NCBI GenBank assembly: GCA_965198235.1
Contig: OZ240248.1
Span: forward strand, 2,112,001 to 2,176,000
Length of the DNA stretch: 64,000 nt
Direction: 5' to 3'
From: Candidatus Poribacteria bacterium
Lineage (GTDB): Bacteria > Poribacteria > WGA-4E > WGA-3G
The position numbers were made by a program, and so were the translations under genes. Position 1 is the stretch's first letter. Each line of letters starts with the position of its first letter. The notes under the pieces are model-generated. The model was not told the origin of the DNA. It was given only the letters and a program-made list of their open reading frames with translations, and made no database searches. This document shows, piece by piece, positions 1-52,667 of the stretch.

Positions 1-1920
1 AACGGAAATGGAAAAATCAACCTCGTCAAACCGCACATTCTGCTGATTGGGTTGGTGCTCGTTGCTTTTAATAGTTACTGGTGCCTGATGGGGACAGAGG
101 TGTGGCACTCTACGCAGTTGACGATCGCTTCTCTGTTCTTCAATGCGGTTTTTACCCTCCTCATCTTCGTGCTTGTCAATCTACTGTTCCAACGGTTCCT
201 GCCTCGTCTGGCAATGTCGGAAGCGGATTTGCAAACCATCTACGTGATGGTGGTGATGCTGACGACTATCAGCGGACATACGATGATGGGCTATCTGATC
301 CCCGTCCTCGCACACGCCTTTCAGTTCGCAACACCAGAGAACGAATGGATTCCACTTTTTGGGCATCACGTCCCGACGTGGATCGCCATCAAAAGTCCAC
401 GCATCTTGGACGGGTTCTACGAGGGAGATTCCACACTCTACACCTCTGGCACTTTAGACGCATGGGTACCACCGGTGCTTGCTTGGTCGAGTTTCGTCAT
501 CGCGCTTTGGCTAACGTTATTGGCAGTGACGGTCTTTCTTCGGAAACAGTGGACCGAAAATGAACGCCTGAACTATCCGATCGTCCAACTCCCGTTGGCA
601 CTGACGAGCAACCCGAAACGATTCTTTACTTCCCCGTGGATGTGGCTCGGCTTCGCACTCGCAGGGAGTGCGGAATTGCTGAACGGCTTAAACTATCTGT
701 TTCCCGATATACCTGCCCTACCGATTAAAGGCAAAACGATCGGGCAATTCAGCTCAAAGCCGTGGAGTGCGATGGGACCGATTCACATCTCCTTCTACCC
801 GTTTAGTATCGGTTTGATGTTCTTTACGCCGTTAGACCTCTCATTTTCCTGTTGGTTTTTCTGGCTTTTCAGTCGCATTCAATTGATTGTAACGGACGCG
901 TTCGGGGCACGGAATATCTACCATCTCGAACAACAGACGGGTGCTTGGATAGCGTTCGGATGTATCCCACTGTGGATAGGACGGCGACACTACGGACGCA
1001 TTCTTCGGAAGGTCTTCGGTATTGCACAACGCCGTGGTGAGCCACCACCTGACGATTCTCGTGAACCGATGCGCTATCGGACTGCGGCGGGGCTGTTCAC
1101 CGTCGGGATACTGTTTCTCTTCTTCTTCTGTAATCAGATGGGTATGACCTTCTGGGCAATTGGGCTCTTTTTTCTCTTCTACTTCCCACTGGTTATCGGC
1201 ATCACGCGTATCCGTGCTGAAATTGGACCACCGTTGCATCAACTCATCTTTGTTGATCCGGGAAGGACGATGGTCCTGGCGTTAGGCACACGCCGACTCG
1301 GGGCAGCCAACCTGACGGGCTTGACGTTCCTCTATCCGTTTGTTCGCTGTTTCCGGGCACATCCGACACCGAGTGAATTGGAGGCGTTCCGCTTGGCAGA
1401 ACGGAGCCAAATCGGGTATCGGCAACTGCTTATCGGGATGATCTTGGCGATTGTGTTCGGTATCCTGATAACGTTCTGGGCGTACCTGCACGTCCTCTAC
1501 GATATGGGAGCAGGCAGCAAAGCACGTGGCTGGATTGTCTATATGGGGTGGGAAACGTTCAACCGCCTGCAGACGTGGCTTGTCAGTCCACGGGAGACGA
1601 GTGTGCCGGAACTCGGTGTTATCAGCGGTAGTTTCCTGTTTACGATATTCCTGATGATTATGAAGATCCGATTCCTGTGGTGGCCCCTGCATCCGGGCGG
1701 CTATGTCCTCGTGAGTGGCACGGGAATGGGCGGTTTGTGGTTTCCGATCTTCCTCAGCTGGTTGGCGAAAGCGACTGTGTTGAAGATTGGCGGCGTGAAA
1801 CTTTACCGACAGGCGGTGCCGTTCTTTTTAGGATTAATCTTGGGAGATTATACACTTGGGTGCGTGTGGAGCTTGATCGGATTGGTACTGGAGATGCCGA
1901 CCTACATTGTGTGGCATTGA
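1..1920 (+). CDS. Large polytopic membrane protein, DUF6785/DUF6784-like (putative transporter); 5'-truncated by window edge
   Basis: Frame is open from base 1; many TM segments; motifs 'W..E.L.YPI.QLPL' and 'WWPLHP.GY' are shared with the paralog at 23863-25791. Confidence 0.75.
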   Translation, partial: NGNGKINLVKPHILLIGLVLVAFNSYWCLMGTEVWHSTQLTIASLFFNAVFTLLIFVLVNLLFQRFLPRLAMSEADLQTIYVMVVMLTTISGHTMMGYLIPVLAHAFQFATPENEWIPLFGHHVPTWIAIKSPRILDGFYEGDSTLYTSGTLDAWVPPVLAWSSFVIALWLTLLAVTVFLRKQWTENERLNYPIVQLPLALTSNPKRFFTSPWMWLGFALAGSAELLNGLNYLFPDIPALPIKGKTIGQFSSKPWSAMGPIHISFYPFSIGLMFFTPLDLSFSCWFFWLFSRIQLIVTDAFGARNIYHLEQQTGAWIAFGCIPLWIGRRHYGRILRKVFGIAQRRGEPPPDDSREPMRYRTAAGLFTVGILFLFFFCNQMGMTFWAIGLFFLFYFPLVIGITRIRAEIGPPLHQLIFVDPGRTMVLALGTRRLGAANLTGLTFLYPFVRCFRAHPTPSELEAFRLAERSQIGYRQLLIGMILAIVFGILITFWAYLHVLYDMGAGSKARGWIVYMGWETFNRLQTWLVSPRETSVPELGVISGSFLFTIFLMIMKIRFLWWPLHPGGYVLVSGTGMGGLWFPIFLSWLAKATVLKIGGVKLYRQAVPFFLGLILGDYTLGCVWSLIGLVLEMPTYIVWH

Positions 1921-2447: not shown

Positions 2448-3590
2448 ATGAAGACTACCCATAATATTCTTTTCCAAGATGCACGAGATTTGAAAGAAAT
2501 TCCTTCAGAAAGCGTTGATCTGGTCGTTACCTCTCCGCCGTACCCTATGATTAGCATGTGGGATGAAATGTTTAGTCATCAGAATCCAGAAATTCAGGAT
2601 GCGTTAGCACGCGGTGATGGTAAACGGGCTTATGCGCTGATGCACGAGATTCTCGATTCTGTATGGAGTGAAGTATTCAGAGTTTTAAAGGATGGTAGAT
2701 TTGCTTGCATCAATATCGGTGATGCGACAAGGAAGGTCCGAGATGATTTTTGTTTGTATCCAAACCACGCGAGAATCTTGAATCACCTCTTAAGTATTGG
2801 GTTTTCAGCGCTACCCGATATCCTCTGGCGAAAACAGGCGAATACTCCGAATAAATTTATGGGGTCAGGCATGCTGCCTGCGGGTGCTTATGTGACGCTG
2901 GAACATGAATACATTCTGATAGTCAGGAAAGGCTCCAAAAGGGAATTTAGAACAGAGGACGAAAAAGAGAACAGACGCGAAAGTGCTCTGTTTTGGGAAG
3001 AGAGGAATATCTGGTATTCGGATGTTTGGACGAATATCAAGGGAACAGATCAGAGACTCCCGAAGGCGATGTCGCGATTGAGAAGTGCAGCATTTCCATT
3101 TGATTTGGCTTATCGACTGATTAATATGTATTCTGTGAAAGGTGATGTGATACTTGATCCGTTTTTGGGTACAGGAACCACGACCGCAGCTGCGATGACA
3201 TCAGGGCGCAACAGTATCGGGGTTGAAATTGACGAGAGTTTTCAACATGTTATATGTCCGGTTACACACCATATTGTCGATTTTTCAAACGATTATTTGT
3301 CCAACAGGTTGCTGAGACACGCTGAGTTTGTCAAGAACCGGATCCAAAACTCGGGAGCGTTAAAATATACAAATAAGTCTTACGGCTGTCCGGTGGTAAC
3401 GAGCCAAGAGCAGTTTATTTTGTTGAATGCCTTAAAATCGGTTCAAGCATGCGGAGATAATATCTTTGAGGTCATGTATTCAACGGAACCGCAAACTTGG
3501 GATGTGGAGCAACCCTCGGAATCCGTGGTCAGGAATAAAATGAAGGCTCACGCAAAACCTTTTCAACTCAGTATGTTGAAGGCACAGTGA
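2448..3590 (+). CDS. Site-specific DNA methyltransferase, beta class (N4-C/N6-A)
   Basis: VTSPPY (motif IV) precedes DPFLGTGTT (motif I). Confidence 0.9.
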   Translation: MKTTHNILFQDARDLKEIPSESVDLVVTSPPYPMISMWDEMFSHQNPEIQDALARGDGKRAYALMHEILDSVWSEVFRVLKDGRFACINIGDATRKVRDDFCLYPNHARILNHLLSIGFSALPDILWRKQANTPNKFMGSGMLPAGAYVTLEHEYILIVRKGSKREFRTEDEKENRRESALFWEERNIWYSDVWTNIKGTDQRLPKAMSRLRSAAFPFDLAYRLINMYSVKGDVILDPFLGTGTTTAAAMTSGRNSIGVEIDESFQHVICPVTHHIVDFSNDYLSNRLLRHAEFVKNRIQNSGALKYTNKSYGCPVVTSQEQFILLNALKSVQACGDNIFEVMYSTEPQTWDVEQPSESVVRNKMKAHAKPFQLSMLKAQ

Positions 3591-3615
3591 CTTCATATTG
3601 TACAAAGGGCTATGT

Positions 3616-4197
3616 ATGCAAATTAAATTAAAAAATGCTGAGATTCAGGAGTATGTGAACGCTCCTGCGTCTGACTTTCCCAAGTACACGACCCAATTAA
3701 TGAATATCGCAAATCAAAATTCTCAGGCTACGCGACCGAGGCACGTTGGACAATTAAGCGAACTGATTCAGGAATTTCCGGGACAAACTTTTGAAGAATG
3801 GGTTACATGGTATCAAGAACAATATCCCGATGCAATTGATGAGGCGACAGATCGAATAATCTCAATGATAGAAAACTTCAACAAAGCTATCGGCAAAATT
3901 GACCGAACCTTGGTTAAATCATGGGTAGAGGATCTTATTCTGGTCAAAACGTTCGCGGGACTTAAGTTTCAGGAGGCAATCCTGAAAAAGTTGGCGGAAA
4001 TAAGAGGCTGTGACTACCGTTTGGCAGAACCTCATGAAGAATCCCAAGGTATAGATGGGTTTGTAGGCGAAGAAGCGTATTCTATCAAGCCCAGCACCTA
4101 TGATTCAATGCCAACTTTAGCGGAATCTATAGAAGTGAAGATGATTGTTTACGAAAAAAAGGCGGATGGTGTAGTGTTTGAAATGCCGGAAGAGTAG
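3616..4197 (+). CDS. Type II restriction endonuclease, MjaI-like family
   Basis: 'KYTTQLMN.ANQNSQATRP..VGQLSELIQEF' and 'ESQGIDGF...SIKP' PD-(D/E)xK-like core; directly follows the MTase. Confidence 0.75.
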   Translation: MQIKLKNAEIQEYVNAPASDFPKYTTQLMNIANQNSQATRPRHVGQLSELIQEFPGQTFEEWVTWYQEQYPDAIDEATDRIISMIENFNKAIGKIDRTLVKSWVEDLILVKTFAGLKFQEAILKKLAEIRGCDYRLAEPHEESQGIDGFVGEEAYSIKPSTYDSMPTLAESIEVKMIVYEKKADGVVFEMPEE

Positions 4198-4447
4198 GGG
4201 CACATCCATCTGTGGATCTTGTCGATACAAGAGTCTGTAGATTAGGTTGGACAGAATGAAAAAGACAGCTCTAAAGGAGATGCAAGAATGGCTCACGTTT
4301 GGAGAAAAAAATATAAAAGCCGCAATAGAATCCTGGATAAATTCTACACGAAACAGGAAGTAGTCAAAAGGTGTTTAGATGAAGTGAATAAATTACCTTA
4401 CCTATATGATTGCGTGATAGAACCGTCTGCGGGGGATGCTGCTTTTT

Positions 4448-4770
4448 GTGATAGACCCCACCCTAAAGGGCGAGGCTTCCGCGATTTCTGCGGAAGCTTT
4501 CATGCGATCAACGACCGCTGCTTTCTCTGAAAGACTTATGCAGCCTACTGCAACAGACGCTACCCCGACTGCGACACAAAAGTGTCCTTACGAAAAGTTT
4601 GTAATGCGTCATGTCTCGCAACAATCGTGTTGGGCCTTGAGTCCGCTATCCACGAAAAACGCATGTCGAGCTGCGATTTATTGATAGATGACCGTTTTCA
4701 GAGCTTTACACTATAGGAACGCTATCAAGAGCTTCGCAACTACAGCCTCTATAGCAACCTTACACTCTGA
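4448..4770 (-). ncRNA. Putative ~320-nt structured RNA (omegaRNA-like)
   Basis: Lies downstream of a consensus promoter; series of hairpins ending at the IS right end. Confidence 0.6.
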
Positions 4771-4774
4771 AATT

Positions 4775-4803
4775 ATTATAGCAGATTCAACAACTTGTGT
4801 CAA
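4775..4803 (-). promoter_or_regulatory. Perfect-consensus sigma70 promoter inside the element
   Basis: TTGACA-caagttgttgaatctgc(17)-TATAAT with TGn extended -10. Confidence 0.85.
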
Positions 4804-5510
4804 GAAAAAACAGCGTCTACATCTCCAAGCTAAAGCATGGAGTTTTGACGCTGAAAAGGTTGATAAAAATATCGAACATGACACCAAAATAGGAATTGAT
4901 ATTGATCCGCGACATGATGAGATTATCAAAGATGACTGGTTCAATTACAATATTAGTGAAATGTATGAGCGCGTATTGGTTATAGGGAATCCGCCGTTTG
5001 GTCAATATCAGAAGCTATCTTCAAAATTTATATCCCATGCCCTCTCATTTCGTAATGTCCAAACAATTGCTTTTATTTTGCCAGATGTTTATAGGAAACA
5101 TACACGGCAAAAAATATTGCCATATCATTGGAGAATAGTCTCCATTACTGAATTAGGAAGGAATTGTTTTACATTAGAAGGGAGGGAATATCATGTGCCT
5201 GCAAGTTTCTTCATTTTTGATAAATCAGAAGGAAAAGATTTAAGAGTTAATCCTAATGCCTACACAGAAACGAATGATTTTAGATTCTCCAATAAAGATG
5301 ATTTTGACATATTTGTATTTGGTGCTTCTCCAAGAAGAATTACAAAAACTCCGACACCAAACAATCGAGGATACTTCCTTAAGTCAAAAATTCCAGTAGA
5401 AGAGTTAATGTCTAAAATCAAAGCAGTTGATTGGAATGGATATTCTTGTGCAAATGGCGGTGTATATTGGCTAACAAAATTTGAATTTTTGGAACAATAT
5501 ATAAAATGCC

Positions 5511-5744
5511 ATGAACCCAATAGAACTAACAGTCTCCGATGATGGGGCGACGACATTTGTTTTAACACATGCAGAAATGATGTTAGAAATGGATAAGCTT
5601 AAAGCCTCTCCCGCACATGGAACTCGAAAAGCTTTAGAAGATAATAAAACTATAGAATATATGATGACTGTAAAAAGGGGTTCCGCGGATTGGGATAGAT
5701 GGATTAGCAACTATCGCAAAGAGGATGATATTTTTCAATTGTGA
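5511..5744 (+). CDS. Small hypothetical protein, possibly a gene remnant of the RM patch
   Basis: 77-aa low-GC ORF overlapping the MTase 3' end. Confidence 0.35.
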   Translation: MNPIELTVSDDGATTFVLTHAEMMLEMDKLKASPAHGTRKALEDNKTIEYMMTVKRGSADWDRWISNYRKEDDIFQL

Positions 5745-51301: not shown

Positions 51302-51464
51302 CGGTTCCTCCAGTCTATCAATCATAATCCTGACTCAGACAACTAAACGCAACCACCAATAATTATATTTATATTAACTGATAAGTCAAGTTAAACCTGT
51401 CAAGGCACCCAAACCTAAAGGATTGGGCTTGTGCTTCATAGCAGTCTGCCTTCCGAGGAAGGGC

Positions 51465-52667
51465 TTACGTCTGCTCCACAGAGGGATCCAAGGCAGCCCT
51501 CAAGATGTTTATCGCAGCGTTGACATCCCGATCGTGGTGTGAACCACACTCAGGACACGTCCATTGCCTATCATTTAGAGAAAGTTTATCGTTGTGATGC
51601 CCACAATCCGAACACGGTTTCGTGGTAGGAGTCCACTGCCCGACTTGAAGGAACTCACGATTATGTTTGAAACATTTGAACTTCAATATCTCCACAAACT
51701 GATAAAAGGCGAGGTCAGAGACTTTCCGTCCCCAAAGGCGTTTCATTGCCTCAAGGTTGAGTGTCTCAGTGACGAGGGTATCAAACCGCCGACACAGGTC
51801 AGTCGCCAGTTTGTAGTGCCAGTCCTTGCGTTGATTGGAAATCTTGGTGTAAAGCCGTGCCAATTCTCTTACCGCACGCCACCAGTTACCAGAACCTTTT
51901 TGCTTACGGCTTACAGATTTGCTGAGTTTGCGGAGTTGGGTCAAGGACGCTTTCAAGGGTTGCGGGTGTTGGATTTTCTCACCGGTGTTCAGCGTCAGAT
52001 AGGTCTCCATGCCGAAGTCCACCCCTACGCTTTTACCTGTAGCGGGCAGAACTTCTTTGGAGGTGTTATCTGTCACGACATACAGCCAATACTCACCGGC
52101 AGCATCGCGTCCGATTTGGATATACCGGACGTTTCCCTTCCAATCGAGATGGTGGTGATACAAGATATTCCTGCGGACAAAGACCAACTTCTGTTTCACT
52201 GTATCCCATTCTTTGAAAGAAAGGCGAAGCGTGCCTCTCGGAATCGGAGAAGTTTCTCCCTCCGGGGGTTTCACCCAAACCTTGTAGCCTGTTTGGAACT
52301 TCGCAGAACGGAGTTTGCCGCGGCGTTTGAACTGCGGAGGACCCACACGTCTGCCACGTCTACCGTTTTCAATCCAATCAAAGAATCGTTCGTAGCCGAT
52401 ATGGATACGGATAATCACTGCGTCAAGCGTATCTCGCGGTATCCATGTCCAGTGTGGCTTGGTGCGTTCGAGCAACTTCGTCAGATGCGGTTGCAGACGA
52501 TACCTACCGGCGTATTTACCATAGATGCGGTAATATCGCCGTTCCAATGCCAAGAAGTGGTTGTGGACATCTTCAAGGTCATCGAACATATTCCCCAAGC
52601 GCATATTCTGCCGGTGATTGCGGATCTTTTTTTTATACGTTCTGCGAGCCTGTTTTCGTTTTTTCAT
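51465..52667 (-). CDS. tnpB: RNA-guided endonuclease TnpB
   Basis: RuvC-I GVDFG, RuvC-II ETLN, CSDC/CPEC zinc finger, RuvC-III DRDVNAAINI. Confidence 0.95.
   Translation of the reverse strand: MKKRKQARRTYKKKIRNHRQNMRLGNMFDDLEDVHNHFLALERRYYRIYGKYAGRYRLQPHLTKLLERTKPHWTWIPRDTLDAVIIRIHIGYERFFDWIENGRRGRRVGPPQFKRRGKLRSAKFQTGYKVWVKPPEGETSPIPRGTLRLSFKEWDTVKQKLVFVRRNILYHHHLDWKGNVRYIQIGRDAAGEYWLYVVTDNTSKEVLPATGKSVGVDFGMETYLTLNTGEKIQHPQPLKASLTQLRKLSKSVSRKQKGSGNWWRAVRELARLYTKISNQRKDWHYKLATDLCRRFDTLVTETLNLEAMKRLWGRKVSDLAFYQFVEILKFKCFKHNREFLQVGQWTPTTKPCSDCGHHNDKLSLNDRQWTCPECGSHHDRDVNAAINILRAALDPSVEQT

What the first reader, a model, noticed from the sequence alone, without database searches (positions are those of the whole stretch)
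4448..4862. Protein-free IS605-type element that appears built to express a ~320-nt structured guide-like RNA
Seen: both IS200/IS605 end hairpins, no credible ORF or tnpB remnant, and a perfect TTGACA-17-TATAAT promoter just inside the left end firing toward the right end. The transcript is densely paired: TTTCAGAG/CTCTGAAA and CTATAG/CTATAG in a long 5' stem, then GACAC-tttt-GTGTC, CTTTC-aga-GAAAG, GCGGTC-gtt-GATCGC, GCTTCCGC/GCGGAAGC and the RE hairpin. Known: TnpB omegaRNAs end at the right end and take a 3' guide from flanking DNA. Inference: this is a stand-alone, unusually long omegaRNA served in trans by a TnpB-like protein and TnpA. The predicted guide AAAAAGCAGCATCCCCCGCA with TAM TTTAT matches the empty (restored) methyltransferase allele, so it could act as an RNA-only homing parasite.
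Basis: partly seen in the sequence, partly recalled or inferred. Interest (0 to 1): 0.85.

Follow-up and report, generated by a model that had tools for sequence, protein, structure and literature searches.

The report
Protein-free transposon carrying a guide RNA
A 415-base mobile element with no genes has landed in a gene of a sponge-symbiont bacterium and carries its own promoter and a folded RNA resembling the guide RNA of a transposon nuclease (TnpB) encoded elsewhere in the genome; this kind of element has already been described.

Summary
Window 4448-4862 (minus strand) is a precise 415-nt insertion 3' of TTAT. Relatives carry the empty site in DNA. I examined 34 copies in 14 genomes of the genus: all start TTATC, all have different flanks, and none has a conserved ORF.

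The element is a non-autonomous IS200/IS605 element (PATE/MITE). Its left end, promoter and last ~130 nt derive from a ~1.47-kb TnpB-only insertion sequence. The host genome holds 14 copies of that IS, 11 of them with full-length TnpB.

A covariance model built only from TnpB-linked 3' ends matches 4448-4579 end to end (65.8 bits, E 7e-17). The TTGACA-17-TATAAT promoter is the inherited tnpB promoter and is kept in 28 of 33 copies. The RNA fold is supported by covariation (30 of 66 pairs, against 7-10 in slid controls).

Contigs from four metatranscriptome runs of one study cover the predicted transcript and run 39-51 nt past the right end.

The ~190-nt 5' part has no counterpart in the parent IS. 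Its role is unknown.

Stand-alone ωRNAs and PATEs that rely on TnpB in trans are already in print, so this is a new member of a known kind. TnpB binding and homing are inferred, not shown.

The parts
4863..4866 (-). TTAT target / transposon-adjacent motif. It stays at the empty site and is not part of the insert.
   Evidence: 34 of 34 copies begin TTATC. 49 of 49 parent IS copies do the same. Empty sites in G014 and G118 keep ATAA on the + strand.
4448..4862 (-). The 415-nt non-autonomous IS200/IS605 element (PATE/MITE).
   Evidence: Precise empty site in DNA of relatives and in RNA contigs. Three copies in the genome, two of them 99.8% identical. 34 copies in 14 genomes, all with unrelated flanks.
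4811..4862 (-). Left end: hairpin CTCCA-loop-TGGAG (4823-4842) inside an outer inverted repeat CAGCGTC/GACGCTG.
   Evidence: Read from the sequence. Hairpin pairs covary: helix 1, 96.7% paired, 2 pairs changed on both sides. The TnpB-only parent and the TnpA-bearing IS605 copies have the same architecture.
4775..4803 (-). Sigma-70-type promoter TTGACA-17-TATAAT with TG before the -10. Predicted start is near 4766-4768.
   Evidence: 12/12 match. A strict pattern is met in 28 of 33 copies, 4 more are near-matches and 1 has none. The homologous promoter sits upstream of tnpB in the parent IS.
4696..4772 (-). 5' stem domain S1: outer TTTCAGAG/CTCTGAAA and inner CTATAG/CTATAG, flanked by invariant GGTTG and GTAAA.
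   Evidence: Inner stem is 100% paired in 18 copies, with 5 of 6 pairs changed on both sides (helix 3). It comes in two sequence types. Its first ~20-25 nt align with the leader of the parent tnpB mRNA.
4604..4674 (-). Middle module: the 5' strand of the long-range helix P2 (4669-4674, pairs with 4540-4545) and the P3 domain (4604-4664, stem ATGCGT/ACGCAT).
   Evidence: P2 is 90.7% paired, with 3 of 6 pairs changed on both sides; it is broken in the recombinant copies (helix 4). Seven complementary sequence variants of the P3 closing stem appear across copies (read). The 75 parent loci hold no counterpart of HMM positions ~120-280.
4448..4579 (-). ωRNA-core homolog: P5 (4553-4572), P6 (4521-4533), P7 (4504-4518), P8 (4475-4497), RE hairpin P9 (4457-4474) and terminal UCUAUCAC.
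   Evidence: Covariance model R1, built from 30 TnpB-linked 3' ends, matches end to end at 65.8 bits, E 7e-17. nhmmer in the reverse direction gives E ~1e-11. Weak Rfam sot0042 match, 16.8 bits against a gathering score of 88.
4573..4586 (-). Hairpin P4 (GACAC-TTTT-GTGTC). It is an insertion relative to the parent sequence TTCTTAAGG|AAGGGG.
   Evidence: 97.7% paired, 4 of 5 pairs changed on both sides (helix 6). Absent from the parent alignment.
4397..4447 (-). 3' flank transcribed with the element. The first 20 nt (4428-4447, AAAAAGCAGCATCCCCCGCA on the minus strand) are the predicted guide.
   Evidence: RNA-library contigs 4397-4556 (depth 334) and 4409-4577 (depth 106) bridge the RE into this single-copy flank. 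Contigs further into the gene have depth 3-9. Contigs do not show strand.
4288..4447 (+). 5' part of the disrupted host gene (ends ...EPSAGDAAF).
   Evidence: ORF list. Intact 290-320-aa orthologs occur in 30 of 64 genomes of the genus and align across the insertion site.
4863..5542 (+). 3' part of the disrupted host gene (YKNIEHD...GNPPFG...).
   Evidence: The intact ortholog has no Pfam, NCBIfam or PDB match. It lies beside an N6_N4 methylase and an MjaI-type endonuclease.

Best explanation
Window 4448-4862 (minus strand) is a non-autonomous IS200/IS605 element (a PATE/MITE). It is related to a ~1.47-kb TnpB-only (IS1341-type) insertion sequence that is abundant in this Candidatus Poribacteria genome. 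It shares that IS's left end, its tnpB promoter, the start of its mRNA leader, and the last ~130-150 nt, which are the ωRNA core and right end.

Proposed mechanism:
1. The promoter drives a ~320-nt structured RNA that reads through the right end into flanking DNA.
2. TnpB made by the full-length copies binds the 3' core in trans.
3. TnpB uses the flank-derived 3' tail as a guide to cut TTAT-adjacent empty sites, so the element is restored by recombination after excision.
4. A Y1 TnpA encoded by IS605 copies with the same end architecture excises and inserts the element 3' of TTAT.

Shown by computation: boundaries, target, mobility, homology of the ends and of the ωRNA core, promoter and fold conservation, and presence in RNA libraries.

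Inferred: TnpB binding, guide use, homing, mobilisation by TnpA, and any role of the ~190-nt 5' module.
For: Mobility and boundaries:
- Precise 415-nt insertion with an empty site in relatives and in RNA contigs.
- 34 of 34 copies in 14 genomes start TTATC and have unrelated flanks.
- Two copies in this genome are 99.8% identical.

Partner TnpB elements:
- 14 elements in the genome end in GGTCTATCAC. Eleven carry 403-404-aa ORFs that match all three RuvC motif patterns.
- In 75 Poribacteria loci of this IS, 49 of 49 start TTATC and 66 of 68 end GGTCTATCAC.
- The TnpB is homologous to ISDra2 TnpB (PDB 8bf8, E 8.7e-46).

ωRNA core:
- Covariance model R1, built from 30 parent 3' ends only, matches 4448-4579 over model positions 1-175 at 65.8 bits, E 7e-17.
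- It matches 22 of 34 MITE copies at E <= 7e-13.

Promoter and fold:
- The promoter is 12/12 here and is kept in 28 of 33 copies.
- 34 of 53 RNAalifold pairs show compensatory change.
- For the hand-drawn 66-pair structure, 87.9% of cells pair against 38-45% when partners are slid. 30 pairs change on both sides against 7-10. No shuffle in 500 reaches the observed value for four of the five measures; for further pair types 24 of 500 do.
- Invariant or frequent G-U pairs fit this strand only.

RNA:
- Contigs from four metatranscriptome runs of one study cover 4397-4759, at contig depths of 40-1011 for the long records against 3-9 in the adjacent gene.
- TnpA-bearing IS605 copies share the TTAT target and the LE architecture.
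Against: - No binding or cleavage data exist.
- The RNA evidence is contigs from one study. They give no strand, cannot rank expression reliably, and do not exclude DNA carry-over. One contig (X4, 4567-4796) runs ~30 nt upstream of the predicted start.
- The MITE core differs from the parent's. It has an added hairpin P4, the apical 18 nt of one parent hairpin are replaced by 2, and a second parent hairpin of ~25 nt is reduced to 5. Compatibility with the resident TnpB is therefore not guaranteed.
- 12 of 34 copies, from two subfamilies with other right ends, are missed or only weakly hit by R1.
- Helices P3 (39% paired in alignment A1, probably misaligned), S1-outer (71%) and P7 (77%) are not well supported.
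- Recombinant copies (G022, G007) break helix P2 yet persist in several copies.
- Rfam gives only a sub-threshold match.
Confidence: 0.7

Rival explanations
1. It is an inert deletion derivative. The element is mobilised by TnpA, and its RNA is made only because the tnpB promoter was retained. The RNA does nothing for the element.
For: LE, promoter and RE are all inherited from the parent IS. Recombinant copies with a broken P2 helix still exist in several copies. Nothing here shows that TnpB is engaged.
Against: The promoter is kept in 28 of 33 copies that are only 63-84% identical. Interior stems absent from the parent (S1-inner, P2, P4) change on both sides in many copies, and the P3 closing stem keeps pairing through seven sequence variants. 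That points to selection on the RNA fold rather than drift. Transposition of this family is known to need only the end hairpins (established knowledge of IS608/ISDra2, recalled).
Confidence: 0.12
2. The RNA works against TnpB rather than with it, or acts as an ordinary regulatory sRNA. It could be a decoy that titrates TnpB from the full-length elements. Alternatively its read-through tail could act as antisense on neighbouring genes.
For: The core is altered relative to the parent (P4 added, two hairpins shortened). A conserved 5' module of unknown role is attached. At this locus the read-through RNA is antisense to the 5' part of the disrupted gene.
Against: The guide-proximal part (P8, P9, terminal GGTCTATCAC) and the TAM are the same as in the parent. 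That is what a working guide RNA needs. Stand-alone ωRNAs have been reported to work in trans with compatible effectors (PMC10691335, passage read).
Confidence: 0.1
3. It is a portable outward-reading promoter that the host retains because it drives neighbouring genes.
For: No terminator-like site lies in 4200-5100, and RNA contigs run past the RE. A truncated copy (promoter plus 5' module, no ends) sits just upstream of a PF04018 gene. I read it there in three genomes; matching fragments occur in three more.
Against: In 14 copies with long flanks, the largest downstream open frame is co-oriented in 7 and opposed in 7 (crude stop-to-stop ORFs). Copy A lies inside a gene and is antisense to it. 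The truncated copy has acquired a mismatch in the S1 stem (read).
Confidence: 0.05

Closest known systems
Stand-alone ωRNAs of OMEGA systems (Altae-Tran et al. 2021, as summarised in PMC10691335; I read that passage only; the 2021 paper itself was not read)
   Same: Mobilised ωRNA loci that lack an effector and a transposase, found in genomes that also hold effector-containing loci. They are reported to work in trans with compatible effectors.
   Different: Here the RNA sits under the parent's consensus sigma-70 tnpB promoter. It carries a ~190-nt conserved 5' module that is absent from the effector-linked ωRNA region. No trans activity has been tested for this family.
PATE-like minimal IS200/IS605 elements of Geobacillus stearothermophilus (Meers et al. 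2023, PMC10055086; passages read; Extended Data and supplements not seen)
   Same: Protein-free elements with IS200/IS605 ends. [quoted passage not shown]
   Different: Different host phylum, TAM (TTAT) and sequence family. I could not compare architectures because the figures and supplements were not available.
ISDra2 TnpB-ωRNA complex (PDB 8bf8, 8exa, 8h1j)
   Same: The partner TnpB aligns over residues 25-372 at E 8.7e-46. The ωRNA ends at the right end and the guide is taken from the flank.
   Different: The TAM is TTAT rather than ISDra2's TTGAT (the latter recalled). In ISDra2 the RNA is encoded with tnpB in cis; here the RNA stands alone. The RNAs were not compared at sequence level.
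Rfam RF02656 sot0042 (sense-overlapping transcript)
   Same: Weak match driven by the terminal hairpin CCCGCCCUUxAGGGCGGGG. It appears in both the MITE (16.8 bits, E 0.1) and the parent IS (17.6 bits, E 0.07).
   Different: Far below the gathering score of 88 bits, so it is not a member. That sot RNAs overlap IS1341-type tnpB 3' ends is recalled, not tested.

Membership tests
Non-autonomous IS200/IS605 element (PATE/MITE) | Subterminal hairpins at both ends and no terminal inverted repeats | tested here: met
   LE and RE hairpins are present and covary. The parent IS and the TnpA-bearing IS605 copies have the same architecture.
Non-autonomous IS200/IS605 element (PATE/MITE) | Insertion 3' of a conserved tetranucleotide, no target duplication, precise empty site | tested here: met
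   34 of 34 copies follow TTAT. Empty sites in G014 and G118 join 4447 to 4863 exactly. RNA contigs show the same joint.
Non-autonomous IS200/IS605 element (PATE/MITE) | No transposase or other conserved coding sequence | tested here: met
   ORF list. tblastn with the parent TnpB gave only E 7.2 in 1 of 21 copies. No conserved sense-strand ORF in 26 copies.
Non-autonomous IS200/IS605 element (PATE/MITE) | A Y1 transposase in the same genome whose elements have matching ends | tested here: met
   Six Y1_Tnp matches in the genome. IS605 copies at 4382025 and 120375 share the TTAT target and the LE architecture. The RE of one matches the GTATGTCAA MITE subfamily.
Non-autonomous IS200/IS605 element (PATE/MITE) | Excision and integration by TnpA | not testable with these tools
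   Only indirect evidence: two 99.8%-identical copies at different sites.
TnpB ωRNA, stand-alone form | Scaffold homologous in sequence and structure to the 3' end of a TnpB-encoding element | tested here: met
   Model R1, built from 30 TnpB-linked ends, matches 4448-4579 over positions 1-175 at 65.8 bits, E 7e-17. 22 of 34 copies match strongly, 1 weakly and 11 do not. nhmmer gives E ~1e-11.
TnpB ωRNA, stand-alone form | A compatible, apparently active TnpB in the same genome with the same TAM and the same RE terminus | tested here: met
   14 parent copies, 11 of 403-404 aa with the three RuvC motif patterns, all ending GGTCTATCAC. TTAT in 49 of 49 parent loci. The motif patterns are recalled ones.
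TnpB ωRNA, stand-alone form | Transcribed on the element's sense strand through the RE, so that the flank supplies a 3' guide | tested here: inconclusive
   RNA-library contigs bridge the RE into 39-51 nt of single-copy flank, at depth 106-334 against 3-9 further out. Two contigs stop at 4756-4759, near the predicted start. But contigs show no strand, all runs come from one study, and DNA carry-over is not excluded.
TnpB ωRNA, stand-alone form | Binds TnpB and directs TAM-dependent DNA cleavage | not testable with these tools
   No tool here models protein-RNA complexes or activity.
Rfam families (sot0042, HEARO, IS605-orfB motifs and all others) | Score at or above the family's gathering threshold | tested here: not met
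   cmscan of 4000-5300 at E <= 10 lists two matches. Within the element only sot0042 matches, at 16.8 bits against 88; the other (DUF805b, 14.5 bits) lies outside it.

The most novel reading that the evidence does not exclude
The ~190-nt 5' module (S1, P2, P3; window ~4604-4772) has no counterpart in 75 TnpB-linked parent elements, yet it is held together by compensatory changes. It may be an adaptation of an RNA-only hyperparasite. The module could stabilise the RNA or help it out-compete the parent's own ωRNA for TnpB. The gene-free element would then take both the homing nuclease and the transposase from autonomous elements while paying for neither.
Probability: 0.25. Interest if true: 0.6.

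Novelty: new member of a known kind. Interest (0 to 1): 0.4.

Why it matters
The passage I read in PMC10691335 states that the biological role of stand-alone ωRNAs is 'unknown'. This family offers a well-populated natural case for studying it:
- dozens of diverged copies with clear covariation;
- a defined promoter;
- a defined partner TnpB and TAM;
- filled and empty alleles of the same site in related genomes;
- RNA evidence from the natural habitat, a sponge microbiome.

It could be used to test whether gene-free elements really exploit TnpB homing, and what an extra 5' RNA domain contributes. It does not change the current picture of TnpB biology.

Tried and rejected
- **Decayed tnpB interior:** rejected at the sensitivity used. 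tblastn of the parent TnpB against 21 copies gave one hit, at E 7.2. The MITE HMM's positions ~120-280 found nothing in 75 parent loci. Pairwise alignment suggests homology only from TTCGTAAGG onward.
- **Small peptide:** no conserved ORF in 26 copies.
- **Known RNA family:** within the element, the Rfam scan at E <= 10 gave only sub-threshold sot0042.
- **Mobile-promoter bias:** 7 of 14 downstream frames are co-oriented, so no bias.
- **Function of the disrupted gene:** the two halves have no Pfam match. The intact ortholog has no Pfam, NCBIfam or PDB-sequence match. 'Methyltransferase' stays a motif-level guess (EPSAGxGxF and NPPF, recalled).
- **RNA coverage gaps:** low or zero depth in some bins (for example X1 at 4727-4757) is not interpreted, because contigs break at repeats.
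- **Literature on this element in Poribacteria:** none of the 12 papers listed holds the word Poribacteria. Searches also listed none on this family. These searches do not cover subscription journals or supplements.
- **Not attempted:** Complex prediction and structure prediction, because the question concerns an RNA-protein pair that those tools do not take.

Full report
**What is there**

The window is G000:C1:2112001-2176000. The sequence at 4448-4866, read on the minus strand, runs in this order:
- TTAT;
- a left-end hairpin inside an outer inverted repeat;
- TTGACA-17-TATAAT;
- about 320 nt rich in stems;
- a right-end hairpin;
- the terminal bases GGTCTATCAC.

The promoter is a 12/12 match with TG before the -10. 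It is the only such site in 4200-5100. No terminator-like site was found there.

The flanking frames (4288-4447 and 4863-5542, plus strand) belong to one gene. Intact orthologs of 290-320 aa occur in 30 of 64 genomes of the genus. In G014 and G118 the sequence up to 4447 abuts the sequence from 4863 with nothing lost or duplicated.

**It is a mobile family**

The genome holds three full copies. Two are 99.8% identical and one is 78% identical. nhmmer found three more diverged or partial copies.

Across relatives I collected 34 copies from 14 genomes, 63-84% identical to this one.
- All 34 start TTATC after unrelated flanks. The base before TTAT is T 18, A 9, G 4, C 3, so the motif is TTAT rather than TTTAT.
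- 28 copies end in TCTATCAC. Six end in GTATGTCAA, a different right end.
- No ORF is conserved.
- tblastn with the parent TnpB finds nothing.

The element-specific interior was found in 21 of 64 genomes of the genus and in 1 of 47 genomes of the family's other five genera, at BLAST E <= 1e-5.

**Where it comes from**

The genome has 35 matches to the TnpB zinc-ribbon domain and 6 to the Y1 transposase.

An HMM of 18 copies matched two regions in the host genome:
- the ~125-160 nt directly after the zinc ribbon of 14 TnpB genes (E about 1e-11);
- the left end and promoter of some of the same elements.

Those elements are ~1.47-kb TnpB-only insertion sequences. An example runs from genome coordinate 597560 to 596090. 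Eleven of the 14 have 403-404-aa ORFs matching all three RuvC motif patterns, and all 14 end in GGTCTATCAC. The TnpB has the OrfB_IS605 and Cas12f1-like_TNB domains. It aligns to ISDra2 TnpB at E 8.7e-46.

A scan of one genome per species returned 75 loci of this IS, all titled Candidatus or uncultured Poribacteria.
- 49 of 49 start TTATC.
- 66 of 68 end in GGTCTATCAC.
- 65 of 68 right-end matches start at HMM position 280-289.
- Left-end matches mostly stop at HMM position 90-119.
- Nothing matched positions ~120-280.

So the element shares with this IS the left end, the tnpB promoter, about 20-25 nt of the mRNA leader, and the last ~130-150 nt.

TnpA-bearing IS605 copies in the genome have the same TTAT target and left-end architecture. 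The right end of one matches the GTATGTCAA subfamily.

**The ωRNA core**

I built a covariance model (R1) from 30 diverse 3' ends of the TnpB-encoding IS only.
- It matches window 4448-4579 (minus strand) over all 175 model positions, at 65.8 bits and E 7e-17.
- It matches 22 of the 34 copies at E <= 7e-13.
- One copy is weak and 11 are missed. These belong to the two subfamilies with other right-end regions.

Compared with the parent, the element keeps the GGGGUAGC-loop hairpin, the UAGG...UAAG junction, and the two 3' hairpins. It shortens two internal hairpins and adds a small hairpin, P4.

Rfam gives only a sub-threshold sot0042 match, for both the element and the parent IS.

**The fold is under selection**

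RNAalifold on 26 copies predicts 53 pairs, of which 34 show compensatory change.

I then scored a hand-drawn structure of 66 pairs in 11 helices on 18 copies.

| Measure | Structure | Partners slid 1-3 columns |
|---|---|---|
| Cells paired | 87.9% | 38-45% |
| Pairs changed on both sides | 30 | 7-10 |
| Covariation score | 0.319 | at most 0.101 |

No shuffle in 500 reached the observed value for four of the five measures.

- Well supported: LE hairpin, S1-inner, long-range P2, P4, P5, P6, P8, RE hairpin.
- Weak in that alignment: P3 (39% paired), S1-outer (71%), P7 (77%).

For P3 the alignment is at fault. Single-sequence folds show a closing stem in seven mutually complementary versions.

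Several pairs are invariant or frequent G-U. This fits the promoter-sense strand only.

The promoter itself meets a strict pattern in 28 of 33 copies.

**RNA evidence**

Four metatranscriptome runs from one sponge-microbiome study hold the stretch. When laid on 4200-5100:
- Contigs 4397-4556 (depth 334, one mismatch) and 4409-4577 (depth 106, none) bridge the right end into 51 and 39 nt of single-copy flank.
- Contigs over the rest of the gene have depth 3-9.
- Contigs 4549-4759 and 4548-4756 stop about 10 nt from the predicted start.
- One contig (4567-4796) runs further upstream.
- Two runs also carry the empty-site joint from a ~93%-identical strain.

These are contigs. They give no strand, their depths are coarse, and DNA carry-over is not excluded. 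I treat this as suggestive support for an abundant transcript that reads through the right end.

**What stays open**

The ~190-nt 5' part (S1, P2, P3) has no counterpart in the parent beyond its first ~25 nt.
- Its stems covary.
- It exists in two sequence types that recombine with different 3' halves.
- Recombinants that break P2 persist.

Its function is unknown. The parent's own leader is also a conserved structured RNA of ~100 nt with a loosely similar layout.

**Comparison with what is known**

[quoted passage not shown] It adds that their biological role is unknown.

Meers et al. (PMC10055086, passages read) describe PATE-like elements that 'often encode ωRNAs' needing TnpB in trans.

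This is a new, well-documented member of that kind, in Poribacteria. Its particular layout is promoter, then leader, then an extra module, then the ωRNA core. I could not find that layout described, but figures and supplements were not available to me.

**Verdict**

| Question | Verdict |
|---|---|
| Observation | Confirmed |
| Novelty | New member of a known kind |
| Interest | 0.4 |

Noticed in passing
L017 1491-1655; L021 ~1502-1666 (minus); L020 ~1501-1656 (minus); also L019, L023: A truncated copy of the element's promoter-like region and 5' module (element positions ~87-241, 81-84% identical, no end hairpins). It sits ~45 nt upstream of the start codon of a PF04018 (undecaprenyl-phosphate translocase-like) gene. 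I read it there in G009, G008 and G025. Matching fragments occur in G015, G026 and G111. In G000 the ortholog's upstream region lacks it. It is probably an old remnant, possibly now serving as promoter or leader.
   Followed up: partly
window 51399-52667 (minus): A second, different TnpB element lies in the window: a 400-aa ORF at 51465-52667 with a zinc-ribbon match at 51504-51707. A weak R1 match (17.2 bits, E 0.0045) at 51399-51512 marks its likely ωRNA and right end.
   Followed up: no
window 2448-5542: The insertion lies in the third gene of a restriction-modification-like cluster. The cluster is an N6_N4 DNA methylase (2448-3590), an MjaI-type endonuclease (3598-4197), then the disrupted gene. 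The disrupted gene's intact orthologs (30 of 64 genomes of the genus) match no Pfam, NCBIfam or PDB entry, although they carry EPSAGxGxF and NPPF motifs.
   Followed up: partly
L059-L133, about 100 nt upstream of position 601; G000:C1 597440-597340 (minus): The tnpB mRNA of the parent IS has a conserved, highly structured ~100-nt 5' leader. Its nested stems vary in a compensatory way among 24 sequences. Its function is unknown.
   Followed up: partly
G000:C1 2520607-2520977, 400851-401227, 1567508-1567677: Further diverged or partial relatives of the element in the same genome. Two lack the P8 hairpin and one consists of the 3' half only.
   Followed up: no
window 4815-4850: Short RNA contigs (36-38 nt, 2 mismatches, depth 22-65) cover only the left-end hairpin and continue into other sequence on both sides; summed depth in that bin is 100-200. 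Other elements sharing this hairpin are therefore also represented in the RNA libraries.
   Followed up: no
L015, L043, L044 (G022); L016 (G007): Mosaic copies combine the 5' stem type of one subfamily with the 3' half of another, which breaks the long-range P2 helix. This is evidence of recombination between element lineages.
   Followed up: partly
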